A stretch of 64,000 nt of DNA, taken from contig OZ024742.1 of the NCBI GenBank assembly GCA_964016885.1, positions 345,030,001 through 345,094,000 of the forward strand, given 5' to 3'. Position numbers and translations under genes: made by a program. Shown here piece after piece: positions 5,891 through 64,000 of the stretch (position 1 is the first letter of the stretch; every line of letters begins with the position of its first letter). Below the pieces are notes generated by a model, which was not told the DNA's origin, did not search any database, and saw nothing but the letters and a program-made list of their open reading frames with translations. Origin of the DNA: Eledone cirrhosa. Taxonomy: Eukaryota.

Positions 5891-7654
5891 TATATTTCTT
5901 TATTAGCCACAGGGGCACAAAAGAAGGGGACAAATACAAAGGGGGGAAGTTTACATACAATAAAAACGTGTAAAATGTTATCACAAATGGAATTTAAAAA
6001 GTTAGTCGATTTTCCCCAATAGAGGGAGACAGTTTATATGGGTAACACATACCCCCGAAAAAAAATGTGCAACCCTCATCTCCAGGAGTACGAAGAGTTT
6101 GTACTCCTTTCCTCTCCTCCTCCTTTCCCTCAACCTACAGGCTGATATAGAGAGAAGGCCCATTCACTCGGGCCATTCTCGCCACTTTCACCCACCTTTC
6201 ATAAAACTTGCTGGGGTACAGCACCTCTCTCTCCATCCTGATTCTTCTTCCAAAGTGGTATTTGAAAAAAAGAATCAGTTGTTGGCCGGAGTGAAAGGTG
6301 TCTGACCTCAGCCCTTTCAACATTGTCCACCATACAACTTCTTTCGCCATAGCTATCACACAAAGGAAAACCGCCTCTCCTTCGTTTTTGAAGGAAGGTG
6401 GCGGTTTGATCATGACAATGGACTCGGTGGTCAACTTGATTGGTCCCACCCGCGACAATAGTCGTTCTACATAGCCCCACAGGTCAGTGACGCCCGGGCA
6501 GTGTATGAATGCGCGCGCGACGGTTTCTTCGTCTCGCACGCACCTCGGACAGATCTTTTTTGCAGGGTCCCTGCCCGGGCGCCCATGTCTGTAGAGCTTG
6601 TCTCGAACTGGTAGAGCTCCTCGGTAGCACTGCCAGGCCAGGGACTTTTGGAAGTTGTCCATCGGTCCCGGGCGGAAGGTCCTACCGAACAGACTGGCCA
6701 GTTCATCTTCCACTACGCCTAGAGTTTCACCGAGCGCGTCATCGCACTTGCTGCGGACCAACCCTCTATAGAATGACGAAGTGGAGTCTCCACTGATCGC
6801 CGGGTCCGCCTGCCAGAGGGCTGTGAGCGCCTGAGCACATTCGATGCACCAGTCGCCCATTTTCCTCGGTCTTTGCTTGACCCAGGACTGCAGCTCGGTC
6901 AGCGAGACGAGTCGTGGGAAGGCTCGCCTCACGAACGGGGCCCACACCGGTTGTCCGCTGAGGAATACGTAGAGATGCCGCAGCCTGAGCGCGTGTTTGC
7001 GCATCGTCAACCACGGCATCCCCAGCCCTCCGTTAGAAGGGTGTTGGCAGCAGATGCATCTTCTCACCAAAGGAGCCCGCCTCTTCCAAAGGAATCGGAA
7101 GAGCGCGCGCTCCATTTTGCCGAGCGTTTTGGCTGGACAAGGCACGACGGTCAAGCGGTAGCAGATGGCGGACGCTATAAAAGTGTTCGCTACCTCCGCT
7201 CGACCTTTCAAGGATAGTTTACACTCGGCCCACTTCTGGGTGAGTGCAAACACCTTGGCCGTCACTTCGTTCCAGTTCTTCTCCACCTGGAGGTCCGGAC
7301 CAAACCAGACCCCGAGCAGCTTTACCGGTCCTTCCGTCCAGCGTCCAACGACGCCATCGGAAGGCATCGGTCTGCCTCTCCACGATCCGAGTTGCAAACC
7401 GATGGACTTGTCCCGGGTCAGCTTCGCTCCTGTGACACTTTCGTATTCCTTCAGTAAGGTGCCGACTTCCTCGATTTGCGAGGCACTCGACAGCATTACT
7501 GTCACGCCGCTTTCCGCAGTCCCGGTTCCAGAGGGATGCCCTGCAATAGCTCCAGCTTCCGCAGTAGTGGCTCGAGAGTCAGTACATACAGAAGGGAGGA
7601 GAGAAGGTATCCCTGTCGAATGGATCGCGTAATATGGAACGGCTCCGAGAGGTA
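5891..7654 (-). mobile_element. 5'-truncated Tx1/L1-clade LINE (RT C-terminus, zf-RVT, 3' UTR) in (GATA)n
   Basis: ORF 6135-7505 (GGLG motif, CPRC..ET..H/R.F.HC); RQGYL-SPLLY upstream; gatagata at both ends. Confidence 0.92.
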
Positions 7655-7669
7655 TAGATAGATAGATAG

Positions 7670-7764
7670 GTATTTAATATAGAAATGGGTTCTACAGGAC
7701 TATAACTGTTTCATTCGAAGGAAATAATGAGGAAACTTACTGTGGTTACCCTCGATTGAACCCG

Positions 7765-14785: not shown

Positions 14786-15968
14786 ATATATATATATATA
14801 TATATATATAAACATGGCTTTAAAAAAGGGGATGTTTGCATAATTGCAAACGAATAGAATATTATTATTGATACTAGACGAAAAAATACCCTTTGGGTGG
14901 TTTTCTGCTACCATGTGTAGTGTGCATATTGATATTATACGCAAGTATATATGCATGTGGATATGATACATCAAATAAAATCGTAATTGACAATATATAC
15001 AGAAATTGAACGTAGACTGCGTGACCCTGCCTTATGTAATCAGTAACGTAATCCATGATACATTAAAAAAAGACGATATTATATATAAACTGCATTAGGA
15101 GAATATATGAATGTTTATTTAAGCGATCGCTAACCGGAAGTGTTGACATTTGAAAATGTTAAAGAAGTGAATCTTTAAATAAGCAATAAAATATATTTAA
15201 TCAAAAGCTACGAAATTTAGCAGATAAATTATGTAATATTCATTTATTATTTATTTAAAATAATCCAACTAATTTTACAAACGGGGTAAAAAATTATATT
15301 GTGGATGCAGTCCCGCACTCCTTTCTTTATTATAGTTTAGATTACAAAAACTCAGATTACATTTATTGTATTCAGCCATGTAGAGCGATAAACATTTTTT
15401 ATTATTATTTGAATATGTCAAAGCCGGCCATTAATCGCTCGTGTACATGAAACTGACTAGCCTATCTGCTGATATGCATATCTGGCTGATCAGTGGATCT
15501 GCTAATATGCAGATCTGACTGATCAACCAGTCTGCTAATATGCAAATCAGACCGATCAATCACTATATATTTTAGAAAATATCATATATTTTCACTAGCT
15601 CTGATAGTTGGCAGGTGAACAGTAAACTGCAGCGAAGGGTAATCACCCAGAAACATTAGTGTTTGCAATTATATTTACATGCCAACACATGAGCAAGAAT
15701 GAGGGACACACACACATACATACACATACACATACATACACATACATATACACACATACACACACATACACACAAATATATACACATACAAATAAATAAG
15801 TACTCAATAAATATACGCATATACACAGGCACATAAAAACAGCTCTACAGGCAGAAAATGCAGATAGGTAAGAGGTACTCACATAACCATAGTGGCCGTA
15901 TTTCAGGTTGAGGAGGGGTGGAGGTAAGGTGGGAAGGAGGTATAGGGGCCAATAGGAGGAGGTCGTTT

Positions 15969-16669: not shown

Positions 16670-16718
16670 GATTCCTGATGATTTCTAAAGAATGAAACAG
16701 TTCTAGTCCTGTAGAATC
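16670..16718 (+). ncRNA. Type I hammerhead ribozyme, GUA site
   Basis: gattc CTGATGA tttct aa agaat GAAA cag ttctagtc ctg TA gaatc; ~85 nt tail then (TA)n. Confidence 0.85.
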
Positions 16719-17065: not shown

Positions 17066-17116
17066 TTTCCAGGACCGGTTTCCGTATGAATCCGGTGATA
17101 TCATCAGGTATTTGAA
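17066..17116 (-). ncRNA. Degenerate HHR
   Basis: Minus strand: CTGATGA...GAAA ccgg TC; core intact but stems I and II pair poorly. Confidence 0.4.
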
Positions 17117-20758: not shown

Positions 20759-20790
<32 letters not shown>

Positions 20791-20791
<1 letters not shown>

Positions 20792-21191
20792 AACGGAAAA
20801 AATGAAACGAAATCTCATTTCCCACTCTCAGTACGGCTGTTACTTAAATATAAGTATGTACACGTACATACATATATGTATACAGACGTACAGTAGTATG
20901 TATATATATATATACATACATGCACACATATATATATGTACGTATGGATTCACCGAACATTTATTATAATGCTGGGTGTGTTTCTAAACAAACATCCCGT
21001 ATTAAGCCGTAGTGTCTAGGAACCATCGTTGCTCGTTTGTTCAACAAAGGAACGCTGTACTAGTTTCAAGCTTATTAGCTATCGTCAGCAACGTATACCT
21101 TCCTGCCAGATTGTTGAACGTATATACTTACCTTATGCATATTAACGGCGGAGTAGCCCAATTTGCATATCGAGTGGGTTAATCGGCCGGG
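20791..21191 (-). mobile_element. Retrozyme-like monomer (49 kb family) with HHR at 21051-21094
   Basis: Minus strand: acgttg CTGACGA t agct aata agct t GAAA ctag TA cagcgt; octamer atttgcat at 21161-21168. Confidence 0.8.
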
Positions 21192-21484
21192 TGTGTGTGT
21201 GTGTGTATGTGTGTGTATGTATAACGTCATGTAATAAGCCTTAGAATCTTGGTAACATTTACTATTTTAATATTTTATGTAATTTATCTTTTTCCATCCT
21301 TCATCTTATATCGCTCATCCGTTATTTGTAAAAGTAATTACCAAATATTACTTGGATGAACTTCTCAAGGACTCAACATTTTTGAAAACATTTACGTCAT
21401 TTCTTTTTTTTTATTTAGATTTTCTTTCCGCCATTTATATTGATCATATTTTATTTTGCCTCTAGCTCTCCAGCTCTTTAATCC

Positions 21485-22430
<946 letters not shown>

Positions 22431-25416: not shown

Positions 25417-28400
25417 TAACACCATCACCCCAAACATAAACTACTGGTGGTTACTAACCGGTTTCTTCAATTTAGACGAGGACAACCTCATTTCAATAGG
25501 GAAGGTATCCGGCGACGCGTTCAGTGGAACGAGTATCGAAGTTCTGACACAGATAAGGCCAGAACGTATCGCCTAAATCCCTGAGCGCGTCATGCTGGAT
25601 GACCGTACCCACCTCAACATTATTGTGGAGGGTAGGCGTCCCTCCTGTTACCTCTGTGGCAATAGAGGTCACCTGAGGGCTGCCTGTCCCCAGCTCACAC
25701 AGAAAAATAACACTGCTACCAACACCAACACCACCCTAACAACCACAACAAAAACAACCACAACAACAACAACAACAACCAACAACACCACCACCACCAC
25801 CACAACAACAACAACAAACACGTGAAAAAACAACACACAATACTGTCCCACCCAACCCCTCCCCACCCAAAACAAATATAAAACACACACCGCAAACACT
25901 ACCAGAAAACATACACCTCCCACCCAACAAGGAAGACGAACCCCTTTCGTCGCAAGTCGAAAATGATCCCTACCAAACAGTAAAAAGAAAGAAGAGGAGG
26001 CGCACCACAGACACATTTGTTAACTTTAACCCTCCCCAAGAGAACACAAACTATAAAAAAACCACCCCTCCCCGTCACACAACACTAACTGCTACACAAA
26101 AAAAGACTTTACAATATACATACATGAACACAGACAACAAAGAACTACTGAAAACAATTTCATCAAACCCTTCGGTCCAAACTGAAGGGCCTAACTTTAT
26201 AACTGCTGTGCGACTACCTCATTTAAAAATGATTAAAGTCCCAATGAACCTTTATAAAACACTGAAAATAAATTTCACGGAGGACATGCCCCCCCCCCCC
26301 CTGCGCCAAACCAATCAACCGCGTCCTCCTAAAAAATGTCTGTGCTAAGAGTAGGGTGTCTAAATGCGCGTGGCCTGGGCTCATCTTCGAAGCAAGCAAT
26401 GCTTCTAAATGACCTCAGGTCACGATCTATAAATGTGATGGTTATCTGCGAGGCCCGGATCAGCGGCATGCGACAGCTAGCCCCCACCTTTGACGACTTT
26501 GAGATGCACGCATCTCTCTGTCAGCCCGGAGGTGGGGGTTGGGTTGTCGTTCTACTGCAAAAACATCTGGGTCTTGCCACACAGATAGTTCACTTGGACC
26601 CAGGGGGTCGACTGGTGGTGCTGGACCTTGGCAGTGGTGAAGGTGGAGCCTTTAGGCTGGTAGCCGCATATGCCCCTTTTGGGACAGAGCGGCCCGACTT
26701 TTTCCAGCGTCTGGAGTCTTTTCCCTGCTTTTAGTGGGGGACTGGAATGGTATCCTGGATGCACGTTGGGACTATGCAGAGGCATGTCCCGATAGAGAGG
26801 GGTGCAACAGCCTCAAGGGGTTACTCGGCCGATTTGACCTGGCCGATAGATTTCGACTAGATTTTCCGACGGTGCGAACTTGGTCTTGGTCAAATCGCAG
26901 CGGATCATCTAGGTCGTACCTAGATAGATTTTTAGTTAGAAATAAGGACAGGGACTTTTAAGGTGTCCATAAATGCTCATGGTTGGCTATTCAGACCACA
27001 AGTTGGTGACCTGCATGGTCAACCTTGATAGAACGCATAGACACAGCCCCGGTTACTGGAAGCTCAACTTGTCCTTGCCGGCAAGTAGAGCTTACAGGGA
27101 TCGGATTAGTACGTTAGTTAAGGAACGGTTGACTGGAGCGATCGTCAACAGCAGGTGGTGGGTATCTCTAAAGAGAGAGATTAGAGTAGTCTCGATAGAA
27201 TTTAGTAAGGTTCTAGCTGCGGATAGGAATAGGAAGGAATGGGAGCTAATAGATAGAGTAGAAGAGGCAATTAGAAGCGGCGGCGTGGCCATAGTGCTAG
27301 CGTCGAGAACGGCTATGAGCCAGTTTTTCGACGCGAAGCACGAAGGCTGCGTTGTCCGAAGTAAAATACATGCTCTAGGGAACGAGGGGACCAAAGCTGT
27401 TAGCTGGGCCAGCGTGACAGAGGCCAAGAGTGGAACTAAATCCACCAGAATGGACGGTCGATCCTTGAGCCTAAGCAGATGTGTGAGGCCTTTCAAAGGC
27501 ACTTTGCCCGACTGATCGGAAGGGGCGGGGAGCCGGTTGGGGACGTGGACTTCGGTCCATACCTCGACGGCCTGCCGCGTCTCTCGGACAGGGAGGCGAA
27601 GTCCTGCGAGGAGCCGATTTCGGCCGCTGAGATAGAGGACGTGCTGAGCCAATGCGGCAAACGCAAATCCCCGGGTCTCGATGGTCTTCCATACGAATTA
27701 TATCTGGCTATGCCGGACTTGTTCCCCGATCTTCTCGAGGCGGTCTACTGCAACTGGCGACAGAACGGGAGAATTCCCTGTACTGTGACCAAGGGCGTAG
27801 TCACGCTAGTGAGGAAGGACGAGAACAAGGGGGACGAAATAAGTAACTTCAGGCCCATAACTCTGCTAAATACAGAGTTACAGATTTTGGCCAAGGTGCT
27901 AGCAAAGAGGTTGGCGCTTGTCGTGGGCAACCTGGTGGGCGATGCGTAGACATGTGCTATCCCGTCCAGGTCCATCCATGACAACCTCCAGCTCATGCGA
28001 TACATCATAGAGAGGGTTGGGAACAAACCATCTTTGGTGGGGCTCTGATCAACTTGGATAAATCTAAGGTGTTCGATAGGGTCGACCATGGTTACCTGGA
28101 TGCGGTGCTAGCGGCAGCAGGCTTCGGACCCGTTTTCAGGGGCTGGATCACTGCTATGCACAACAGCCGCATCTGCTCTAGGGTCAAGGTGAACGGCTAT
28201 CTCTCGGAGCCGTTCAAAATCGCGCGGTCCATCCGACAAAGGGTGCCCTCTCTCCTCCCTTCTGTATGTATTGACTCTCGAGCCACTACTACGGAAGTTG
28301 GAGTTGTTGCAGGGCATCCTTTTGGAACCGGGATTGCGTAAAGCGGTGTCGGCCTACGCCGATGACGTGACAGTAATGGTGTCGACGGCCTCCGAAATCG

Positions 28401-31040
28401 GGGGTCGACTGGTGGTGCTGGACCTTGGCAGTGGTGAAGGTGGAGCCTTTAGGCTGGTAGCCGCATAGAGTCTTTTCTAGGGACGTCCCGTTCCCTGCTT
28501 TTAGTGGGGGACTGGAATGGTATCCTGGATGCACGTTGGGACTATGCAGGGGCATGTCCCGATAGAGAGGGGTGCAACAGCCTCAAGGGGTTACTCGACC
28601 GATTTGACCTGGCCGATAGATTTCGACTAGATTTACCGACGGTGACAACCTGGTCTTGGTCTTGGTCAAATCGCAGCGGATCATCTAGGTCGCCCCCGTG
28701 CTGAGCCAATGCGGCAAACGCAAATCCCCGGGTTTGGATGGTCTTCCATACGAATTATATCTAGCTATGCCGGACTTGTTCCCCGATCTCCTCGAGGCGG
28801 TCTACTGCGACTGGCAACAGAACGGGAGAATTCCCTGTACTGTGACCAAGGGCGTAGTCACGCTAGTGAGGAAGGACGAGAACAAGGGGGACGAAATAAG
28901 TAACTTCAGGCGCATAACTCTGCTAAATACAGAGTTACAGATTTTGGCCAAGGTGCTAGCAAAGAGGTTGGCGCTTGTCGTGGGCAACATGGTGGGCGAT
29001 GCGTAGACATGTGCTATCCCGTCCAGGTCCATCCATGACAACCTCCAGCTCATGCGATACATCATAGAGAGGGTTGGGAACAAACCATCTTTGGTGGGGC
29101 TCTGATCAACTTGGATCAATCTAAGGTGTTCGATAGGGTCGACCATGGTTACCTGAATGCGGTGCTAGCGGCGGCAGGCTTCGGACCCGTTTTCAGGGGC
29201 TGGATCACTGCTATGCACAACAGCCGCATCTGCTCTAGGGTCAAGGTGAACGGCTACCTCTCGGAGCCGTTCAAAATAGCGCGGTCCATCCGACAAGGGT
29301 GCCCTCTCTCCTCCCTTCTGTATGTGTTGACTCTCGAGCCACTACTGCGGAAGTTGGAGTTGTTGCAGGGCATCCCTTTGGAACCGGGATTGCGTAAAGC
29401 GGTGTCGGCCTACGCCGAAGACGTGACAGTAATGGTGTCGACGGCCTCCGAAATCGGGGCGATCGGCACCTTACTGGAGGAGTACGTAAGGTTCACAGGG
29501 GCTAAGCTGAACAGGGACAAGTCGATCGGTTTGCAACTCGGCACGCGGAGGGGCAGACCGATGCCCTCCAATGGCGTCGTCGGACGCTGGGCGGATGGCC
29601 CGGTGAAGCTGCTCGGGGTCTGGTTCGGACCAGACCTCCAGGTGGAGAAGAGCTGGGCGTAGGTTACGCACAGGGTGTTTGCACTGACCCAGAAGTTGGT
29701 CAGTTGCAAACTATCCCTGAAAGGTCGTGCGTAGGTGCCGAACACCTATATAGCGTCCGTCATCTACTACCGCCTGACCGTAGTGCCTTGCCCAAGGGAA
29801 AGCCTCGCCAAGATGGAGCGCGCGCTCTTCCAATTCCTTTGGAAGAGGTGGGCTCCCTTGGTGAGGAGATCCATCTGCTGTCAACACCCTTCGAAAGGAG
29901 GGCTGGGGATGCCGTGGCTAATGATGCGTAAACACGCATTAAGGCTACGGCACCTCCACGTATTTCTCACCGGTCAACCGGTGTGGGCCTCGTTTGTGAG
30001 ACGAACCTTTCCCAGACTCGTCTCACTCACCGAGCTGCAACCCTGGGTCAAGCAAAGACCGAGAAAACTGGGCGTCTGCCACACTGAGTGTGCCCAGGCG
30101 CTCACCGCCCTCTGGCAGTCGGATCCGGTTATCAGTAGAGACTCCACTGCAACATTCTATAGAGGGCTGGTACGCAACAGGTGCGACGACGCCCTCGGAG
30201 AAGCCCTAGACATGGAGGAAGACGAACTGGCCAGCCTGTTCGGTAGGACATTCAGCCCGGGACCTATGGACAACTTCCAGAAGTCCCTGGCCTGGCAGTG
30301 CTACCGAGGGTCTCTACCCGTTCGAGAAAAGCTCTACAGACACGGGCGCTCAGGTAGGCACCCCGCCAAAAAGATCTGTCCCAGATGCGTGTGCGACCGA
30401 AACCGTTGCACACGCATTGGTACACTGCTCGGGCATAGCCGATCTGTGGGGCTATGTCGAACAACTGCTGTTAAGGGTGGAACCGATCCGGTTGACCACC
30501 GAGTCTATTGTAATTATCAAGCCGCCTCCCCCCTTCAAAGATGAAGGAGAGGCGGTGTTTCTGTGCGTAATAGCCATGGTGAAAGAAGTTGTATGGTGGA
30601 CGCGTCTGAAAGGACTGAGGTCAGGCACCTTACTCTCTGGCCAACAACTGGTCTGTTTCTTCCGATATCATTTCGGAAGAAGGATCAGGATGGAGAGAGA
30701 GGTGCTCGACCCCACTCGTTTTTATGAAAGGTGGGTGAAAGTGGCGAGAATGGCCCGTGTGAATGGGCCTTCTCTTTACATAAGCCTGTAGGCGGAAAAG
30801 AGGAAGGAACGAGGGAACACCCCTCTCTGTGCTCCTGAGGAGAAGGGTTGCACACTTTTTTCGGGGGTGTGTGCGACCCCCCAAGGCGCCTCCTCTCTAT
30901 TGAGGATTTTGTTATAAATTTTATTTTTTGTTATATTTTATTTTATTTTTATATTTTGTTATTGGGGACGCCTTGTTTTGTAAACTCCCCCCTTTGTACT
31001 TGTCCCACTTTTGATGCCCTGGTGGCAAATAAAAGAAACA
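25417..31040 (+). mobile_element. Tx1-clade LINE, ORF1 remnant plus disrupted ORF2, with internal duplication
   Basis: ORF1 knuckle CYLCGNRGHLRAACP; APE motifs LNARGLG, GDWN, SYLDRF, SDHK; RT motifs KSPGLDG, FRPITLLN, KVFDRVDH, RQGCPLS, YADD; starts and ends in (TATC)n. Confidence 0.95.
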
Positions 31041-31070
31041 TATCTATCTATCTATCTATGTATTTACTAT

Positions 31071-33620
31071 CCTTGCAAGACAAAGATGGACGCATTCTAC
31101 TTGAATCCAAGCAGATGTGCACGGTCTTCCACCAGCATTTTGCACAACTGTTCGGGCAAAGCCGTACGTCAAGGGAGGTGATGGACTTCAGCACCTACCT
31201 CGACGGCGTACCACGACTCTCGAACGCGGATGCGGAGAGCTGCGAAAGGCCGATCACAGCGGGCGAAATAGAAGATGCCCTAGGCCGCTGTGGGAAACGC
31301 AAATCACCCGGTTTAGATGGTCTACCCTATGAGTTTTACATAGGCATGCCAGACTTGTTTTCTGGTGACCTCGAAGTTCGAAGCGGTCTACTGCAACTGG
31401 CAGCAGAACGGGAGGATTCCCAGTTCTGTAGGCAGAGGCGTAGTAACGCATATCAAGAAAAATGAGAACAAGGGAGATAAGCAATTTCAGGCCCATAACT
31501 CTGCGCAACACAGAGTTAAAGATTTTGGCCAAGGTGTTAGCAGCGAGGCTGGCGCTTGTCGTCGAGAATCTGGTAGGGGAAGCGCAAACGTGTGCAATTC
31601 CGACTAGGTCCATACACGATAACCTCCACCTCATGCGATACATCCTAGAGAGGATAGGGTGTAAATCTGGCTTCGATGGGGCTCTGATCAATTTAGATCA
31701 GTCTAAGGCATTTGATAGGGTCTACCATTAATACTTGGAAGCGGTTCTCAAGGCGGCCGGTTTCGGTCCCGTCTTCAGAGGCTGGATCGCTGCCATGCAC
31801 ACAAGTATCTGCTCGGCAGTCAAGGTGAATGGCTACCTATCGGAGCCATTCCAAATCATGCGTTCCATTCGACAGGGATGCCCTCTCTCCTCCCTTCAGT
31901 ATGTACTGACTCTCGAGCCATTACTGCGAAAGTTGGAGCTGTTGCAGGGCATCCCGATCGAACCAGGACTGCGGAAAGCAGCGTCGGCCTGTGCCGACGA
32001 CACAACCGTAATGGTGTCGAAAACCTCGGACATCGGGGTAATCGGCAACCTATTACAGGAATACGAAACATTGACAGGAGCAAGACTAAACCCAAACAAG
32101 TCTGTCGGTTTGCAACTCGGCACATGGAGAGGCAAACGCATGTCTTCCGACAGTGTCGCTGGACGCTGAGCGGAAGGACCGGTGAAATTGCTCGGGGTCT
32201 GGTTTGGTCCAGACCTCCAGGTGGACAAAAACTGGAACGAGGTCACAGCGAAGGTATTTGCACTCACCCAGAAGTGGGTTGAGTGCAAACTCCCCTTGAA
32301 AGGTCGAGCGGAGGTGGCGAACACTTACATAGCGTCCGCCATCTACTACCGCTTGACAGTCGTGCCTTGTCCCTGCGAATACCTCACCAAAATGGAACGC
32401 CTACTCTTCAAGTTCCGCTGGAAGAAACAGGCTCCATTGGTGAGGATATCCATCTGCTGTGTACACCCTTCTAACGGAGGGCTGGACATGCCGTGGCTGG
32501 TGATGCGCAAACACGCGCTGAAGCTACGCCATCTCCAGGGGTTTCTGACCGGTGAACCGGCGTGACTGTCGTTTGTGAGACGAACTCTTCCACAACTCGT
32601 CTCACTGACAGAGCTGCAGTCCTGGGTCAAGCGAAGACCGAAAATGGGCGCCTGGCACCTCGATTGCTTTCAGGCGCTCACACCCCTCTACCAAGCGGAA
32701 ACGGCAATCAGCGGAGACTCCACTTCGACATTTTATAGGGGATTAGTGGAGGATAAATGCGACGACGTTCTCGGGGAAACTCTAGGCATCGAGGAAGACG
32801 AACTGACCAGTCTGTTCGGGAGGACTTTCCGTCCAGGGCCTATGGATAACTTCCAGAGGTCCCTGGCCTGGTAGTGCTACCTAGGAGATCTACCAGTTCG
32901 AGACCAAATCTACAGGCACGGACGCCCTGGCAGAGATCCTGCCAAAAGGACCTGTCCAAGATGCAAGCAGGACATCGAAACCATTCTGCACGCAATTGTT
33001 CAGTGCCCAAGGGTGACCGACCTGTGGAATTATGTCGAACAGCTACTGTCACGTGTAGGACGCATCCAGTTGTCAGCCGAGTCCATCGTGAGGATCACCC
33101 CGCCGCCTTCATTTAAGAATGAAGGAGAGGCGGTCTTCCTCTGTCTGGTGGCTATGGCGAAAGAGGTAATATGGCGGACGAGGTTAAAAGGACTGAGGGC
33201 AAGCACATTTCTCTCCGGACAACAACTCATCCCCTTCTTTAAGCACCACCTCAGAAGGAAAGTGAGAGTGGGGAGAGAGGTGCTACACCCCAGTAAATTC
33301 GCAGAAAGGTGGGTGAATGTGGCGAAAATGGCCCGGGTGAATGGGCCTTCTCTGTATATAAACCTGTAGGTTGACGAAGATAAACAGAGGGAAGACGGGA
33401 ACACCTACAAAACGTGTTCCTGGTGTTGAGGGTTGTTCTATCCACGGGGTGCAAAATAACCCCGCAGTAGCATTACCCCCCCACCTAATAGGGATTCCAA
33501 TTCTTTTATTTTTATACAGTTTATTGTTATTTATCATTGTTAAAGCTTTTATGTAAAACCCCCGCCGTCACGTCTTGTAATGTCCCATTTGTGTACGCCC
33601 TTGTGGCAAATAAAAAAAGA
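31071..33620 (+). mobile_element. Tx1-clade LINE, 5'-truncated, second subfamily
   Basis: RT to C-terminus ..ARVNGPSLYINL*; distinct 3' UTR; tatctatc at both junctions. Confidence 0.93.
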
Positions 33621-33645
33621 TATCTATATATATAACTATCTATCT

Positions 33646-36600
33646 ACTTAACTGAAATCGTCTTGAAAGAGGCAATGCCGGAAATACAATACATACAAAG
33701 GGCTAAACTCTATGGAAGCATTTCGGTGCTCTTCAAAAGTGAAGCCCTTGCGAAAACATACTCATTGACCCCGGTCACCTCTGCCACACACACCTTTTTT
33801 CCTACATACATGGGAAAAAGAACACAAATAATAAACATCACCAATATACTACCCAACATTAACATCAGGTGGATTCTGGCAGGTTTCTTGGAGGAAGATG
33901 AAGACACAATACTGTCGATTCAAAAATCCATAAGAAACAACTAGAACGGCACAAGCTTGTAAATTTTGGTCCAAATGAAACCGGACAGAATTCCAAGATA
34001 CCAGAAAGGGGGCCAGTAGACAATACCAATTACATCCACATTTCGGCAGATGCAAGGAGGCAACATTGTTTTAAATGCGCGAGCACATCGCATTTAAAGG
34101 CCTCCTGTCCCCTCTTACGAACAAAAACCCACACCCCCAAAAAGTACTTTTACCAACACCAACTCCAAAACCACAATAACACCAACACACAAAACAAGCA
34201 AACACACAAACACAAACAACTGTTCAACAACAGAAAAAAACACAAACAATTCCGCTGAAAAGCACAGTCCCACCCCATCCCACTCCATCCAACACTACCA
34301 AAATCACACACACAAACACACCATCACCACACAACATAAACCCTCTCACACTCCCCTGATAACGATTCATCACCAGACGAGGCTACTTCTCCTTCCCCAA
34401 GTGAAGATGAAGGAGAGCCTCGTAAATAAAAAAAAAGAAAAAAGAATAGACACTACAAAGCCACAAAAACAACAATCACCAACACAAACACACAACCACC
34501 AACACAAATAACAAATGAAACACCACCCCAATCAACCCCCCACCCCTACCAGCAAAACAAACACCAACACCACCCCAAACACAAATGCCCACCATAAAAT
34601 GAAAACTACAAAATTAACAACAAACCAAAACAACACAACAAAAAAACAAACAACAATACACATACATTAACAAAAACAACAAAAACCTAATGGAGGTCAT
34701 CCCCCAAGACCACAAAGTAGAAACCGAGGGGAAAACGTTTGTAAAAGCAGACTCTCAACCACACTTAAAACTAATAAGGGTTTCGATAGAGACCTATCAG
34801 ACATTGAAAGAAAAGTTTTCACAGGACGTTGGCAACCCCTGCCAAAAACCAATAAACCGTGTCCTGTTGAAATGTTTCCCCACCCCACTCAACACTCCCA
34901 CCAGAACTGAAATGGAGATTGAACAACCCGATCTTCAGGAAACGAAAATGTAAGTGCACCTTTTCGTCCTTTTTTCCAACTCTTCTCCACCAACATGGCT
35001 GACGTACGAGTTGAAAGCGTGAATGAGCGTGGCCTAGGGATGCCCTGGAAACAGGGCCAACTTTTAAACGACCTTAGGTCACACGGTATAGATGTAATAG
35101 CCATCACCGAGTCCAGGATCCACAACAGGCAGCAACTAACCCCCATCTTCAATGACTTTGAGATCTACGCATCTCTCTGTCAGCCGGGAGGTGGAAGGGG
35201 AGTGACTGTCATGTTTCGGAAAAATCTGGATCTCGAAGTACAGCAAGTAAACTTGGACCCGGACATCTAGATCGTATCTAGATAGGTTTTTCATTAGAGA
35301 AAAGGACAATACGATGTTAAGCTGTCCACAAATGCACATGGTTGCCTATTCAGATCACAAACTAGTCGTCTGCATAGTCAACCGTGATAGAATACATAGA
35401 CAAGGAGCCGGATACTGGAAGCTGAACGTGCCGTTGCCGGCACGAAAAGCCTACAGTCAACGGATAAGTAGATTAGTTAAGCAAGGGTTAACGGGAGCCA
35501 TCGTCAACAATAGATAATGGTACTCTCTCAAGAGAGCAATTAGAGTAGAATCGATAGGGTTTAGGAGAGAATTAGCTGTAGAGAAAAACAAATCAGAAAC
35601 AGAACTAGTAGCCAAAGTAGAAGAGCCGCTTAGGAGTGGCAACGCAGCTAGAGTGCTAGCAATGAGAACGGCACTAGACCAGTTTTCGACGTGAAATACG
35701 AAGGTTCCGTGGTCAGAAGTAAATCACGTGCTCTAGGAAACGAGGGAGCAAAAGCTGTTAGCTGGGAGCGAGTGGCGGAAGCGAAAAGTGGCAACAAGTC
35801 CACGATTCGGTCTTTGAAAGACCAAAACGGACGCATGCTACTTGAACCCAGGCAGATGTGCGCGGCCTTTCAGCGGCACTTTGCGCCACTGTTTGAGCAG
35901 AACGACGGTGCACCGAACGGGGCAATGGACTTTGGTTCATACCTCGACGGCCTGCCGCGTCTCTCGAACATGGACGCCGAGTTCTGCGAAAGACCGATCA
36001 CAGCCACTGAGATACGGGACGCTCTGGGAAACGCAAATCACCCGGTCGAGATGGTCTACCGTATGAGTTTTACATAGGCATGCCGGACTTGTTCTCTGGC
36101 GTCCTCGAAGCCGTCTACTGCAATTAGCAGCAGAACGGGAGAATTCCCAGTTCTGCAGGCAAGGGGGACGAAATAAACAATTTCAGGCCCATAACTCTGC
36201 TCAACACAGAGTTAAAGATTTTGGCCAAGATGCTAGCAACGAGGCTGGCGCTTGTCGTCGAAAGCCTGGTAGGGAAAGCGCAAACGTGTGCAATCCCGAC
36301 CAGGTCCATACACGACAGCCTCCACTTCATGAGATAGATCATAGAGAGGATGGGGTGTAAACCCGGCTTCGGTTGGGCTCTGATCAATTTAGATCAGTCT
36401 AAAGCATTCGATAGGGTCGACCATCGATACTTGGAAGCGCTTCTCAAGGCGGCCGGATTCGGTCCCGTTTCCAGAGGCTGGATGAAGGCGATGCACACCA
36501 GCATCTGCTCGAAGGTCAAGGTGAACGGTTACCTATCGGAGCCGTTCGCAATCACACGTTCCATTCGACAGGGATGGCCTCTCTCCTCCATTCTGTACGT

Positions 36601-38302
36601 ATTGACTCTAGAGCCACTACTGCGGAAGTTGGAGCTTTTTCAGGGCATCCCTTTAGAACTGGGACAGCGAAAAGCGGCGCCCGCTTATGCCGACGACGTG
36701 ACGGTAATAGTGTCGAAAACCTCAGAAATCGAGGTAATCGGCAACCTACTACAGGAATACGAAAGGTTCACAGGAGCAAAACTGAACCCGGACAAATCTG
36801 TCGCTTTGCAACTCGGAAGGTGGCGAGGTAAACCGATGCCGACCGACAGCGTCGTCGGACGCTGGACGGAAACCCCGGTGAAATTGCCCGGGGTCTGGTT
36901 CGGTCCAAACCTCCAGGTGGAGAAAAACTGGAACGAGGTCATGGCCAAGGTATTTGCGCTTACCCAGAAGTGGGCAGAGTGCAAACTGTCTTTGAAATGT
37001 CGAGCAGAGGTGACGAACACTTTCATAGTGTCCGTCATCTACTACCGCTTGACTGTCATGCCTTGTCCCCGTGAATATCTCACCAAGATGGAACGCATGC
37101 TTTTCCAGTTCCTGTGGAAGAAGCAGGCTCCGCTGGTGAGAAGATCCGTCTGCTGTCAACACTCTTCCAACGGAGGGCTGGGCATGCCGTGGCTAATGAT
37201 GCAAACAAGCGCTGAGGCTACGGCATCTTCAGGTATTCCTCACCGACCAACCGGTGTGGGCACCGTTTGTGAGACAGGCATTCCTACAACTTGTCTCGCT
37301 GATGGAGCTGCAGTCCTGGGTCAAGTGAAGAAGATGGGCGCCTGGCACATTGAATTCGCCCAGGCGCTCACAGTCCTCTGTCAAGCGGGCACACCAATCA
37401 GTGGAGACTCCACTTCGACATTCTATAGAAGGTTAGTACTTTACAAGTGCGACGACGTGCTCGGGGAGACTCTAGGCGTCGAAGACGACGAGCTCACCTG
37501 TCTGTTCGGTAGGACTTTCCGCCCGGGACCTATGGAGAACTTCCAGAGGTCCCTGGCCTGGCAGTGCTACAGAGGAGCTCTACCTGTTCGAGATAAGATC
37601 AACAGGCTCGGACGCCCCGGCAGGGATCCTTCCAAGAGGACGTGTCTAAGTGGCGAGCAGGACATTGAAACCGTCTTGCACACAATTGTACACTGCCCGG
37701 GCGTAAGCGACCTGTGGAACTATGCAGAACAACTGCTGTCGCGTATGGGACAAATCCAGTTGACTGCCGAGTCCATAGTAAGGATAACACCGCCAGCCTC
37801 TTTCAAAAACGAAAGAGAGGCGGTTTTCCTCTGTACAGTGGCTAAGGTGAAAGAGATGTTTTATGGTGGACGAGATTGAGAGGACTGAGGACAGATGCCT
37901 TTCTCTCCGGACAACAATTGATTCCCTTCTTTAGATACTACTTTAGAAGAAGAATCAGAGTGGAGAGAGAGAGGCACTGCACCCCAGTAAATTTACTGAA
38001 AATGGGGGGGGGGGATAAATGAAGCGAACATGGCCCGAGTGATTGGGCCTTCTCTGTTTATAAGCCTGTAGGTTAAAGATGAGATCAAAAGGAAGAAGGG
38101 AGCACTTGCACAACACGCTCCTGAAGTCGAGGGCTGTTCTATCGACGGGGTATTAAACAACCCATTTGTGGCGTCTCCTCCCTATTGGAGATTTCGATTG
38201 TTATAATTGTTTGTTTTATATTTTTTTTTACACGACTCAATGTAAAATCCCCGGCATGTATTGTCCCCTTTTCTTGTGCGCCCTTTTGGCAAATAAAGAA
38301 AT
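33646..38302 (+). mobile_element. Tx1-clade LINE, ORF1 and ORF2 remnants, third subfamily
   Basis: Knuckle CFKCASTSHLKASCP near 34066; ORF2 start at 34995; RT ORF 36350-37879 with KAFDRVDH, RQG.PLS, YADD; ends aataaagaaatatatctatc. Confidence 0.93.
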
Positions 38303-48575: not shown

Positions 48576-49214
48576 GAACTAGGTGGAGGATTTATTTCTC
48601 TTTCTGTATATTTTACAAACAAAAATATATCGGAATTTAAAAGAAAAAAAGACAGAAGAAAAACAATATCCGTACTTGGCAAGTGTTTACTGCCGTTTAG
48701 TGAGCGCTCTTTATCATTTAAACCGGTCATATCCGACCATAATTCGCTCACCTCTTTCTGTTTAAACAGGCTATAACTGGTCACACATACGTTAAGCTAT
48801 AGTTAATAATAATAAATAACATTAATATCTCGTAGATTCGATATTATGTGAAACAATTATGTGAACTAATGTGAACAGGTAATAGTATATAGAGAGTAAT
48901 GTGAATGATAAAGGGTTACACTCGATCTACAAAGACAACACAAATGAAACAAACAGAGAGAAAGATAGAGAGAAAAAGGAAGGGGAAAAGGCAAGAAGAA
49001 GAAAGTAAGATATCGTATTAAATGTAAATCATTGAGCTTATTGGCGGAGAAGTATATATATATATATACATATATATATAAGTTGAAAAAAAAATGAAAA
49101 CGAAATTTCATTTCTCACTCTTAGTATGGCACTTACTTAAATGTAAGTATGTATGTATACGTACATACATATATGTATACAGACGTACAGTAGCATGCAT
49201 ATATACATATATAT

Positions 49215-49287
<73 letters not shown>

Positions 49288-49436
49288 CAGGTACACATAC
49301 ATATATGCACGCATCAGTTTAGCGGACGCTTATTATAACGCCGCTTTGTTCGTTTGTCAACAAACTGAACAGCCTGAATTTATGCCATACGGTGTTAAGG
49401 CAACCACGTCACCTTTTTGTTCAACACTGACACAGG

Positions 49437-49481
49437 AACGATGTACTAGTTTCAAGCTTGTTAGCTATCATCAGCACCGTT
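49437..49481 (-). ncRNA. Type I hammerhead ribozyme, GUA site
   Basis: Minus strand: aacggtg CTGATGA t agct aaca agct t GAAA ctag TA catcgtt. Confidence 0.88.
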
Positions 49482-49554
49482 TACCCATCTGCCAGATAGT
49501 TGAACGTTCGAAAGTATATACTTTCCTTATGAAAATTAACGGCTGAGCAGCCTA

Positions 49555-49562
49555 ATTTGCAT
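49555..49562 (-). promoter_or_regulatory. Octamer motif ATGCAAAT upstream of the HHR
   Basis: Conserved at 21161 and 63393 at similar spacing; function is inferred only. Confidence 0.45.
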
Positions 49563-49736
49563 ATTGAGTGAGTTAAATCGGCCAGGCATACCGAAAACGA
49601 TAAGTTGAAAAAAAAATGAAAACGAAATTTCATTTCTCACTCTTAGTATGGCACTTACTTAAATGTAATTATGTATGTATACGTACATACATATATGTAT
49701 ACAGACGTACAGTAGCATGCATATATACATATATAT

Positions 49737-49787
<51 letters not shown>

Positions 49788-49952
49788 CAGGTACACATAC
49801 ATATATGCACGCATCAGTTTAGCGGACGCTTATTATAACGCCGCTTTGTTCGTTTGTCAACAAACTGAACAGCCTGAATTTATGCCATACGGTGTTAAGG
49901 CAACCGCGTCACCTTTTTACTTTCGAACGTTCAACTATCTGGCAGATGGGTA

Positions 49953-49997
49953 AACAGTGCTGATGATAGCTAACAAGCTTGAAACTAGTACATCGTT
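49953..49997 (+). ncRNA. Type I hammerhead ribozyme (inverted copy)
   Basis: aacagtg CTGATGA tagctaacaagctt GAAA ctag TA catcgtt. Confidence 0.82.
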
Positions 49998-50150
49998 CCT
50001 GTGTCAGTGTTGAACAAAAAGGTGACGTGGTTGCCTTAACACCGTATGGCATAAATTCAGGCTGTTCAGTTTGTTGACAAACGAACAAAGCGGCGTTATA
50101 ATAAGCGTCCGCTAAACTGATGCGTGCATATATGTATGTGTACCTGTATG

Positions 50151-50211
<61 letters not shown>

Positions 50212-50280
50212 ATATATATGTATATATGCATGCTACTGTACGTCTGTATACATATATGTATGTACGTATACATACATACT

Positions 50281-50343
<63 letters not shown>

Positions 50344-54371: not shown

Positions 54372-57300
54372 TTTTCTCCCCACTTTTTAAAGCTTTAAGC
54401 TTGATAAAAACTGGTGACTATTGTAGATTCGTCCATTTTCTAGTCAGTATGTGTGAGGACCAATGTAGTCGACTATTTTGAGTGGTGGTGATAAATTTCG
54501 GTCTTCCTTTTACTGTACTACTCTCTCTTACACGCACATTTTGACCGACTTTCAGAGATTTTGTCTTTTTGCTATAAGATGTTTGGTATCTAGACAATTT
54601 TGCTTTAGCCTCAATATACGACGACTGGGCACATGTGGTGGCGTCTAAGGCGGCAGCGCTTAATTTAGTGCGCAAGGGTCGACCTAAGAACAGTTCTGCC
54701 GGTGTCACGTCGGTCGCACTGTGGGGCGTTGATCGTAGTGTCTGCGGCGCCTTCGATACTGCGTCATCCCATGCCAGACCGTGAAGTTGTAGTGTTTGAA
54801 TAGTTTCATTAAGTATTTTATTGCATCTTTCTACCAACCTGTTTGCTTGAGGATTATAAGGGACATATTTGCAGTGCTTAATCCCATTTTCCTTGAAGGT
54901 TTCGAACAATCCACTGCGGAATTGGGGACCATTGTCCGACACGAGATCTTCCGGCAGGCCAAAACGCGCGAACACAGAAGATAACCAAGTGATTATAGGG
55001 ACAGCTTGTCCACATGCACAGACTTCGCAGCACCGACTGTAGTAATAGATACGTACGACAAGGTAAGCTTTGTTTTTCGGTGCTGTTGCGAAGGGGCCCA
55101 TAATGTCAATTGACACTTTGGTCCATGGTTTTAAAGGTTACCAAACGGGTTGAATTGCGGCGGATAATGGCTTTGACGATTTGTTAGACTGGATGCATGC
55201 CTGGCATGAACGGACAAACGATTCAATCTGTGAATTACAATTAGGCCACCAGTACCATTGACGCAGCCGTTGTTTCGTTCGCACAATACCGGATGACCTG
55301 AATGTGCAAGAACCATAACTCGTCTTTATAAACTGGTAGGAACGACCAAGATGCTTCCGCGAAACATGCACTCCCGTACTATGGACAGCTCAGAGCGGAC
55401 TTGGAAATATGACCGAAGAGTGTTGTCAACGCATCGACATGGAGGCCATCCTTCCGTAATAAACTGTTTTACGCTTTTCAGAACGGTATCGTTTGCCAAC
55501 TCTAGAGCAAATTCAGATAGCGGGTGGGCATGTTCCTCTTGAGGACCAAGGCTGGCTATAATTTCGTTATCTTTGTTCAGTTCTATGGCTGGTAAGTGCG
55601 GGGACCGAGACAACGCAACAGTGACTTGATTGTTCGTTGATTGAAGCGTTGCCATGCAGCCGGTGCAGAACTGAGACCCATGGGAAGAACTTTGTACTGA
55701 AATAGGCCTTTTGGAGTAAGGACAGCGGTAAGCTGCCTCGATTTCTCACACAATTCCATATGGAAATAGGCGTTAGAAAGGTCCATTACTGAGAAGAATG
55801 TCGCACCCGCTAGAGGAGCCGCTAGTTCGTCAAATGAGGGAAACATAAATTTGTCGACAATAATTTTTTCGTTTAAGCGTTTTAAATCACAGCAAATGCG
55901 TATGCGGCCATACTTCTTAAGCACACAAACCATCGGGTGAACCCAGTCACTACTTTCGTTCGGTTCTATAACGTCTGCCTCTAGAAGCTCAACAATAGCT
56001 TGTAGGACAGCCTACAGTTTTGCCAACGTAATATGTCTTGGCTGACGAAATGCTGATGTCGTAACACCGAGCCGCAAGCGTATTAGATGCTAAACAAGAG
56101 GGATTCGATCTATCCTCTTCTCAAAAACCGATGAGAATTCTTTTACCAAGTGGTGGTACGTTCGGCGGCAAAGCTATCTCATCTTTATTCGATGCTGGCT
56201 CTCTCAATTGGGTTTGCATCGCCAACGGTTGAAATCATGTTCTCTAGCTTAGGTGAGATTATAAGTGGGACCATAGCGTTACGACCTAACAACGGTTTAC
56301 ATTGCCTTGGGCCAACATAAATTGCAATCTTATAGGCGGAATTCATTTCTACCTGAATGTTGGCGAAGAAAAATCCGCGAATGCTGACGGAGTCATCAGA
56401 ATGGCTCAACAACTTGTGGGCGGTACGAAGTAAAGGCGATTGACTGAAGTGTGGCTGATAAAATGTTTCGGGGTTATGGTAATTGGAGATGCTGAATCAA
56501 GCACCATGAATAACATGGCATTTTGACCATCAGCCAACAGACTAACGTGCCGACAATCGGCCATAGGAAGCTTAGGATCATGATCATTCTCGGCAGTAAG
56601 CTGACTGATGATTGAATATATTGTAACATCGTTTTCGGTTTCTATTGCTTCTTCAATACGGTGAACTGTTTTGCGACGGCAGCACGTGGCAAAATGACCC
56701 CCATTTCCACAGTTCCGACAAATTGAATTTTTGGCGGGGCATTCGGGAAAGGTCGCCTCATGACCAGGATTCCCACAGAGGAAACATTTGCTGTTGGATT
56801 GCATTGAAATTTTACTTTGTTCTAGAGCAACCTTATCAATATTATGCTGTTCTTGTTTGAAAGCCTTCATTTGAGACTTAATGCTTTCTTTGCAGCGAAC
56901 TATATTACAGGCTTTGTCGAAAGACAAGGTGCGCGAATCCTCGTTTAAAAGCACCTCTCGTGTACTATCGTTTTCAATGGCGGAGATTGCTGCATTAAAA
57001 TAGCGTCTTTAATTTTGGACTTAATTAGACTTTCGTATTCACATTCGGTAACGTTTTTGCGCAGTTTTAAGATAAAACTATCAGTCGACTCACCGTGGTC
57101 CTGCTGAATGCGACTGAATTGATGCCTCTCGAAGAAAACGTTTTGTGTTGTCCTCCACGGGCGACCGAGTTCGTAAATAGCTGCGTCCACATTCTTGAAA
57201 TCGTGGCAGTCGAACACCTGGCGACCGCCTTCACCAAGATAATGGCGCATTAAGGCTTATTAGGAGTCATCTCACAGCGCAACGGAAGAAGGCTGAAGTA

Positions 57301-62969: not shown

Positions 62970-62971
<2 letters not shown>

Positions 62972-63617
62972 AAAACAAATAACGAAACGAAATTAAATTT
63001 CGTTTCGTTTGTAACTCACTTTTGTATGACTGACGCTTAAACAATTAAGTTAAAAATGTACATCCACATATGTATACTGAAATACTAGTATGCATATGAA
63101 TACACACACGTGTACATATGTAGATGTACCGAGTTTTTCACTGGACACTTTACTGTGAGTGTTCAGCTATTCTGTATGTAAACACACAGACAAACCGGTT
63201 TTTAGAGTCATACTGGTTTTCGAGGAAACACCTTTCCTCTATTCTCCAGAAAGCCAGACAGGAATATTGGACTAGTTTCGATGTTGTTACATCTCATCAG
63301 CAATATTTACCTATCCTCCGGCCTTTCTAGAGAATCGTAAAAGCACATATCGTTATATGCTTTTTCTATGAAAATTAGTAGTGGGCAGACTAATTTGCAT
63401 AGAGCGTGAGTACGTACCGGTTCAGCGGAGACGATAAAAACAAATAACGAAACGAAATTAAATTTCGTTTCGTTTGTAACTCACTTTTGTATGACTGACG
63501 CTTAAACAATTAGGTTAAAAATGTACATCCACATATGTATACTGAAATACTAGTATGCATACGATTCTCTAGAAAGGCCGGAGGATAGGTAAATATTGCT
63601 GATGAGATGTAACAACA
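62970..63617 (-). mobile_element. Retrozyme-like element: ~465 bp monomer, partial tandem copy and inverted piece
   Basis: 62970-63096 repeated at 63435-63561; 63561-63617 is the inverse of 63283-63338. Confidence 0.82.
63263..63307 (-). ncRNA. Type I hammerhead ribozyme, GUC site
   Basis: Minus strand: aatattg CTGATGA gatgt aaca acatc GAAA ctag TC caatatt; perfect 7-bp stem I and 5-bp stem II. Confidence 0.92.
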
Positions 63618-64000
63618 TTTTAATACTACAACAATTTTAATACTACTACACCAAATGACCAGCCCTGTCCACTGTCCAATTGGTCAAGTAGAGACTAAAA
63701 TTGGCACTCCCAAAAATTCTTATTTAGACAAAATGAACCATTTACTCATGGTATTCTCATTAGAAACCCATTATATACTTGTTTAGCAGTAAATTGATTT
63801 ACCATCTGTCATATACTATCCCCTCTTTTTCTTCCTCTATTACTAATATAAATACTTCAATTTTTCTGATTTTATCCAATTTATCCAAAATCTCTGAAGA
63901 AGTGACAACTGATTATACATTTGCTATCGAATACTTGCTAACATTATATGATTACGCAAGCAGCGATACATAGGTATTCCGTCTGTTACAGAAACATATG

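What the first reader, a model, noticed from the sequence alone, without database searches (positions are those of the whole stretch)
49474..49590. Conserved octamer pair upstream of the ribozyme: possible snRNA-type promoter
Seen: ATGCAAAT on the HHR strand lies 73, 81 and 93 nt upstream of the core in three diverged copies (21161, 49555, 63393). A second, oppositely oriented octamer-like word (atgcatat/atgaaaat) lies ~25 nt away, although the 63 kb copy barely aligns elsewhere. Known: the HHR-containing newt satellite 2 is transcribed from an snRNA-type promoter with an octamer. Inference: a similar internal promoter is conserved or convergent in this invertebrate family.
Basis: partly seen in the sequence, partly recalled or inferred. 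Interest (0 to 1): 0.75.

Follow-up and report, generated by a model that had tools for sequence, protein, structure and literature searches.

The report
Retrozymes carrying hybrid snRNA-type promoter
The octamer sits in a very abundant family of small hammerhead-ribozyme repeats and matches the box upstream of this animal's own U6-type genes, so it likely forms part of a built-in promoter predicted to start transcription just ahead of the ribozyme, while the second, inverted word is found only in younger lineages and is predicted to be a hairpin partner.

Summary
The three copies belong to three young lineages (A, B, C) of a tandem hammerhead repeat (31,054 exact matches in G000, control 1) with Penelope-type insertion marks: a non-LTR retrozyme. 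The octamer is intact in 59 of 68 ribozyme-selected copies, is the longest identical run between A and C, and persists in older lineages D, E, F. All 5 intact host Pol III genes (U6, U6atac, MRP) carry the same box at -76..-78; U1/U2/U5 do not. Behind it, a profile built from host U1/U2/U5 promoters fits best 14 nt downstream (rank 1 of 214 offsets), strongly in D/F but poorly in the window's own A/B/C. A TATA-like word lies 41-43 nt from the octamer, not 46-48 as in U6, and all 104 full monomers hold T4+ runs. Best reading: an internal POU/SNAPc promoter, more likely Pol II, starting near 49490. The 'pair' is not family-wide: the inverted word is confined to the A/B/C clade. No RNA data; transcription untested. 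The scan reported this before on other DNA of this genome.

The parts
49080..49601 (-). Full monomer of lineage A retrozyme (522 bp here, TA run expanded; 472 bp typical); its 3' end abuts a (TA)n microsatellite
49602..49917 (-). Second, 5'-truncated tandem unit
49918..50285 (+). Inverted 5'-truncated copy with its own hammerhead (core at 49960); lacks the octamer; Penelope-type tandem/inverted layout
   Evidence: (I8)
49552..49563 (-). Extended octamer TATGCAAATTAG (octamer 49555-49562), same box as in host U6/U6atac/MRP promoters
49532..49548 (-). PSE-like block (TCAGC core 49542-49546, 16 nt behind the octamer start); weak fit in this lineage, strong in older lineages
49529..49536 (+). Second octamer-like word; overlaps the 3' half of the PSE-like block; predicted RNA hairpin partner of the octamer; only in A/B/C
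49515..49520 (-). TATA-like word, 42 nt behind the octamer start, 26 nt behind TCAG; also part of a predicted hairpin
49490..49490 (-). Predicted transcription start (octamer +72; inferred from host U1/U2/U5 geometry), 16 nt before the core, 47 nt before the cut
   Evidence: inference
49437..49481 (-). Type I hammerhead: stem I 49475-49481 with 49437-49443, core 49468-49474, palindromic helix III, predicted cut between 49444 and 49443
49597..49603 (-). Conserved TTATCGT block at which insertions end (likely reverse-transcription start on a TA target)
20790..21194 (-). Lineage B copy: octamer 21161-21168, second word 21135-21142, TATA-like 21121-21126, core from 21088
62970..63618 (-). Lineage C insertion: 465-bp unit plus partial unit and short inverted piece (63560-63618, +); octamer 63393-63400, second word 63368-63375, core from 63300

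Best explanation
The octamer is likely the activator site of an internal snRNA-type promoter carried by each unit of a hammerhead retrozyme, predicted to start transcription, more likely by Pol II, about 8-28 nt ahead of the ribozyme core. Inferred mechanism: a POU factor on the octamer helps SNAPc bind the adjacent PSE-like block; polymerase reads through the T runs and following units; hammerheads cut out monomers that hold the next unit's promoter at their 3' part; a Penelope-type enzyme copies them from a fixed site into (TA)n, so tandem copies regain a promoter in front of a ribozyme. Shown: motifs, spacings, conservation, insertion structure. Inferred: binding, polymerase, start site, cleavage, circles, the mobilising enzyme. 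The second word is a derived feature of the A/B/C clade, predicted to close an RNA hairpin with the octamer.
For: Host Pol III genes with intact upstream DNA (3 U6 types, 1 U6atac, 1 MRP) all have TATG(C/G)(A/T)AATKAG at -76..-78 and TATA at -30; the other 14 U6 and 7 U6atac loci examined, which look like processed copies, lack it. Octamer exact in 59 of 68 ribozyme-selected copies that cover the site (87 examined); longest identical run between A and C consensus, 12 nt; kept in D, E, F 85-96 nt before the core, including 3 of 4 D/E/F copies that were found by the ribozyme alone (L328, L329, L310 yes; L122 no). In D, E, F the octamer has no consistent RNA partner, so a stem does not explain it. 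A profile from 14 host U1/U2/U5 promoters scores best at octamer+14 averaged over 5 lineages: rank 1 of 214 offsets, z 4.7, 0 of 300 column-shuffled profiles as good at any of 140 offsets; these letters were not in the search pattern. TCAG-to-TATA spacing 26-27 nt equals host U1/U2/U5. Longest T run is 4 or more in 104 of 104 distinct monomers and 5 or more in 77. 56 of 60 listed terminal copies end at one motif and run into (TA)n. Newt satellite 2 has an snRNA-type Pol II promoter (passage in PMC2220036).
Against: No transcript evidence. The PSE fit is poor in the window's own lineages: A/B -12.6, C -20.0 bits against -4.0 to 18.8 for host genes left out by class; ranks 37 of 1012, 34 of 892, 155 of 978. 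PSE-only profile is matched by 31 of 300 shuffled profiles at their best offset; the TATA part alone is not significant (z 2.1). Host Pol II genes have no proximal octamer (0 of 14 exact), and the host distal element is absent from A, B, C monomers (best 6.6 vs host minimum 16.0). Within A/B the octamer (0.026 non-consensus) is no more constant than +34..+41 (0.029) although more so than other flanks (0.14-0.16). One B array has ATGCATAT, improving the hairpin (5 of 68). The TCAG anchor was chosen after I saw the likeness; lineages and host paralogues are related; most D/E/F copies were selected by the octamer.
Confidence: 0.6

Rival explanations
1. It is a U6-type (Pol III, type 3) promoter; rare read-through of the T runs yields the full-length templates.
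For: Only host Pol III genes carry the proximal octamer, with the same flanking letters; a profile of their +8..+30 block ranks first at the expected offset; octamer-to-start distance (72 vs 76-78) is close.
Against: A U6-type TATA at 46-48 nt from the octamer is missing in A/B, C, D and E (only F scores 4.6 there; host 9.9-11.0); without the three letters next to the octamer the block ranks 12th; every monomer holds T4-T11 runs and insertions end beyond them, at a fixed motif.
Confidence: 0.17
2. The octamer is kept as an RNA feature (hairpin arm or protein-binding word); the elements are transcribed only by read-through from host genes.
For: In A and C the octamer is predicted paired with the second word (mean 0.85-0.86); the monomers are hairpin-rich; the 2020 review says metazoan retrozymes seem to lack promoters (PMC7761336 passage).
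Against: The second word varies while the first stays, leaving a mismatch in 63 of 68 copies; D, E, F keep the octamer without the partner; match to the host promoter box and PSE spacing is unexplained.
Confidence: 0.12
3. The promoter was functional in older lineages (D, E, F) but is weakened in A/B/C, where a POU dimer site or the hairpin now replaces the PSE.
For: PSE fit falls from 6.8 (D) and 0.9 (F) to -12.6 and -20.0 in A/B and C, exactly where the second word appeared.
Against: A/B/C are the youngest, most numerous lineages (many 99-100% identical copies) and keep the C-A of the PSE core and the spacing.
Confidence: 0.11

Closest known systems
Metazoan non-LTR retrozymes (Cervera and de la Pena 2020, PMC7229834, passages and parts 3-4 of 6 read; Li, Clavereau and Pollet, bioRxiv 10.64898/2026.07.22.740005, parts 1-3 of 5 read)
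   Same: Type I hammerhead in each short, low-GC tandem unit without a long ORF; thousands of copies; Penelope-like elements proposed as mobilisers.
   Different: Units are 420-520 bp and carry a conserved octamer/PSE-like/TATA-like block; the parts read describe no promoter, and a review states that retrozymes seem to have none (PMC7761336 passage).
Newt satellite 2 (Coats, Zhang and Epstein 1994; not held, known only from its title and a passage in PMC2220036; octamer, PSE and a start 46-47 nt before the cut are recalled)
   Same: Hammerhead tandem repeat with an internal snRNA-type promoter, Pol II.
   Different: Invertebrate host; no sequence comparison was possible; here the octamer copies the host's proximal Pol III-gene box.
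Host Pol III type-3 promoters (U6, U6atac, MRP in G000)
   Same: Same extended octamer directly upstream of the PSE zone.
   Different: TATA-like word 4-6 nt closer and weaker; no distal element; T runs inside the unit.
Host Pol II snRNA promoters (U1, U2, U5 in G000)
   Same: TCAG-type core with a TATA-like word about 26 nt behind it.
   Different: These have an AATTAAAT element at -90 and no octamer; fit is poor in A/B/C.
Penelope-like elements (Craig et al. 2021, PMC8557442, passages read)
   Same: Partial tandems with an inverted 5'-truncated copy, microsatellite targets, promoter inside the terminal repeat.
   Different: Non-coding; no autonomous partner was identified here.

Membership tests
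Non-LTR retrozyme | Type I hammerhead in each unit | tested here: met
   Core pattern, helix II and stem I pairing; 31,054 matches vs 1 control; Rfam gathering score not reached
Non-LTR retrozyme | Short low-GC tandem units, no long ORF | tested here: met
   Units 424-519 bp; none of the 13 window ORFs of 200 aa or more overlaps a copy
Non-LTR retrozyme | Self-cleavage and circular RNA in vivo | not testable with these tools
   No RNA holder listed
Non-LTR retrozyme | Strongly self-paired monomer | tested here: inconclusive
   Circular folds of -150 to -173 kcal/mol for three monomers (two A-type, one C), no shuffle control, TA runs contribute
Penelope-mobilised element | Fixed 3' end, partial tandem plus inverted truncated copy, microsatellite target | tested here: met
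   56 of 60 listed ends into (TA)n; layout at 49 kb and 63 kb
Penelope-mobilised element | Shared end with an autonomous PLE | not tested
   No partner search was run
Host Pol III type-3 promoter | Proximal TATGCAAATKAG box | tested here: met
Host Pol III type-3 promoter | TATA box 46-48 nt behind the octamer | tested here: not met
   Best TATA-like at 41-43 in A/B, C, D; only F at 46
Host Pol III type-3 promoter | Transcribed region free of T-run terminators | tested here: not met
   104 of 104 monomers T4+, 77 T5+
Host Pol II snRNA promoter | TCAGT-type PSE with TATA-like word about 26 nt behind | tested here: inconclusive
   Met in D and F, below host range in A/B, C, E; lineage mean rank 1 of 214
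Host Pol II snRNA promoter | Distal element (ATTACYTCCCTTG type) about 200 nt upstream of the PSE | tested here: not met
Host Pol II snRNA promoter | Mapped start about 56 nt behind TCAG; SNAPc dependence | not testable with these tools
   No raw RNA reads
Newt satellite 2 promoter | Functional octamer and PSE driving Pol II | not testable with these tools
   Paper not held; features recalled

The most novel reading that the evidence does not exclude
These retrozymes run on a hybrid promoter found in no host gene examined: the Pol III genes' proximal octamer joined to a Pol II-spaced PSE. Capture of the POU/SNAPc machinery would then have happened in both newts and this invertebrate, giving a general answer to how hammerhead circles are transcribed and a natural series for testing what sets polymerase choice.
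Probability: 0.4. Interest if true: 0.72.

Novelty: new variant of a known kind. Interest (0 to 1): 0.5.

Why it matters
How retrozymes reach high, tissue-wide expression is open; a review assumes read-through because no promoter was seen. An upstream-type promoter normally cannot travel with a retroposon; a tandem or circular unit with a ribozyme solves that, since each monomer carries the next unit's promoter. The finding gives exact, testable predictions (start at octamer+72, octamer and PSE mutants, amanitin sensitivity), defines the host's snRNA promoter elements, and implies tens of thousands of dispersed POU sites.

Tried and rejected
Rfam scan of the window: 0 matches. RNA runs: no RNA holder listed; only contigs could be laid, which show no starts. 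In one search none of the 34 variable places of lineage C fell in either word, but that is expected by chance for 8 nt; single monomer-length contigs at low depth in two other organisms' runs are not taken as evidence. One search had lineage B in the wrong orientation and was replaced; the fold labelled B is an A-type monomer. Octamer counts were out of register and are replaced (its column profile of 30 distinct A/B sequences is used). Rejected: octamer pair as a family-wide unit (absent in D, E, F); insertion ends as Pol III termination points (they lie at a motif beyond the T runs); host distal element inside the monomer. A pyrimidine-A step at octamer+71/72 in all three window copies is too likely by chance to count. 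Papers not held: Coats 1994, Luzi 1997, Denti 2000, Cremisi 1992, Pabon-Pena 1991. Literature searches (listings seen) showed no paper describing an octamer/PSE promoter in an invertebrate retrozyme; supplements of the retrozyme papers were not read and may bear on this.

Full report
Observation. The three octamers, their distances to the hammerhead core (73, 81, 93 nt) and the inverted second word 25-26 nt away are as described. The octamer is not enriched in the window as such (6 vs 4.95).

The element. Each copy belongs to a young lineage with many near-identical relatives in G000, a 3.0-Gb animal genome: A (472-bp unit), B (about 422 bp), C (465 bp). A pattern for their hammerhead has 31,054 exact matches against 1 for the reversed control. 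It is a type I hammerhead with a palindromic helix III, of the kind reported to work as dimers (PMC6155905 passage; palindrome role recalled). Insertions end at one conserved motif and run into (TA)n in 56 of 60 listed terminal copies; 169 further units continue past it. The 49 kb and 63 kb insertions have a partial tandem plus an inverted truncated copy, as described for Penelope-like elements (PMC8557442 passages). This is a non-LTR retrozyme (PMC7229834; bioRxiv 10.64898/2026.07.22.740005).

Conservation. Of 87 copies chosen by the ribozyme alone from the first 19.5 Mb of C1 (tandem copies are not independent), 68 cover the site: 59 have the exact octamer, 5 (one array) ATGCATAT, 4 single changes; the second word splits 39 ATATGCAT, 26 ATTTTCAT, 3 other. 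Among 30 distinct A/B sequences the octamer is among the least variable blocks but not uniquely so. Between A and C (53% identity) the 12-nt extended octamer is the longest identical run, the second word next with 11. A search for octamer plus a hammerhead with another helix III gave 453 matches, control 0; many are decayed A/B/C copies, others are older lineages D, E, F. These keep the octamer 85-96 nt before the core but lack the inverted word, and their octamer has no consistent predicted partner, whereas in A and C it pairs with the second word. A tree of 15 rows groups A, B, C (95/88). So the octamer is the shared character and the pair is clade-specific. Of four D/E/F copies found without the octamer in the query, three have it.

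Host promoters. U1, U2, U5, U6, U6atac and MRP genes were fetched. The five Pol III loci with intact upstream DNA all have the extended octamer at -76..-78 and TATA at -30; the other 21 U6/U6atac loci examined lack it and look like processed copies. Fourteen U1/U2/U5 promoters have a TCAGT core at -55..-58, a TATA-like word near -30, AATTAAAT near -90 and no proximal octamer; U1, U2 and U6 mostly share a distal element near -260. In vertebrates the octamer factor binds cooperatively with SNAPc and one gene is used by both polymerases (PMC3499247 passages); in insects the extracted Pol III promoter span is 4 bp longer than the Pol II one (PMC1761439 passages).

Fit of the repeat to these promoters. 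A profile built only from the 14 Pol II promoters scores best 14 nt behind the octamer start when averaged over five lineages (rank 1 of 214, z 4.7; 0 of 300 shuffled profiles as good at any offset). It is the top site of the region in three of four D copies and in F, but only rank 37 of 1012, 34 of 892 and 155 of 978 in A, B, C, below the host range. The PSE part alone is weaker (31 of 300), the TATA part not significant. A U6-type TATA at the host distance is missing in four of five lineages; the best TATA-like words lie at 41-43 and score below host genes. The distal element is absent. All 104 distinct full monomers contain T4 or longer, 77 T5 or longer. By Pol II geometry the start falls at octamer+72: 8-28 nt before the core and always upstream of stem I, 47 nt before the cut in A; I recall a like distance for newt ovary transcripts but could not check it.

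Mechanism and limits. The simplest account is an internal POU/SNAPc promoter, Pol III-like in its adjacent octamer and Pol II-like in spacing, carried in the 3' part of each monomer so that tandem copies made from circular or multimeric RNA put it before the next ribozyme. I put a real promoter at about 0.8-0.85 and Pol II given that at about 0.7. Nothing here shows transcription, binding or cleavage; no RNA run was available. A review states that retrozymes seem to lack promoters (PMC7761336); newt satellite 2 is the known exception (PMC2220036). Eight earlier notes of this scan on the same genome reached similar readings; I consulted them after forming mine, and they are not evidence. The host's taxon was not determined here.

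Noticed in passing
window 17078-17107 (-) and 16676-16705 (+): Two further hammerhead motifs of other families (helix III ACCGGT type, and a minimal type) without an upstream octamer; 355 genome matches to the broader pattern vs 27 control.
   Followed up: partly
L126, L271, L335 (G000 C1/C2): Old, diverged hammerheads with ACATGT helix III that also have an exact octamer 70-98 nt upstream; with L328, L329, L310 that is 6 of 61 loci examined from the 100 listed. Possibly still older promoter-bearing lineages.
   Followed up: partly
L151-L170, L171-L173, L186-L200, L201, L209, L226-L232: Host snRNA promoter anatomy: proximal octamer only in Pol III genes, TATA-like word also in Pol II genes, non-octamer distal element near -260. 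The U6 promoters could serve as guide-RNA promoters for this animal.
   Followed up: yes
L301-L307 (C1:143.3-143.8 Mb): One lineage D copy repeated about every 58 kb, part of a large tandem duplication.
   Followed up: no
window 6138-7673, 21621-22400, 27800-38300: Several diverged copies of a LINE-like element (RVT_1, zf-RVT) with (TATC)n-type tails.
   Followed up: partly
window 54421-55137 (-): Open frame with a weak integrase-core (rve) match, LTR-element-like fragment; observed only.
   Followed up: no
window 15470-15560: Short repeated unit of about 33 bp bearing octamer-like words (ATGCATAT, ATGCAGAT, ATGCAAAT) in tandem; a similar stretch lies upstream of L205.
   Followed up: no
L210-L221: Many processed U6 copies lack the first few bases and are fused at the 3' end to other repeats.
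   Followed up: no
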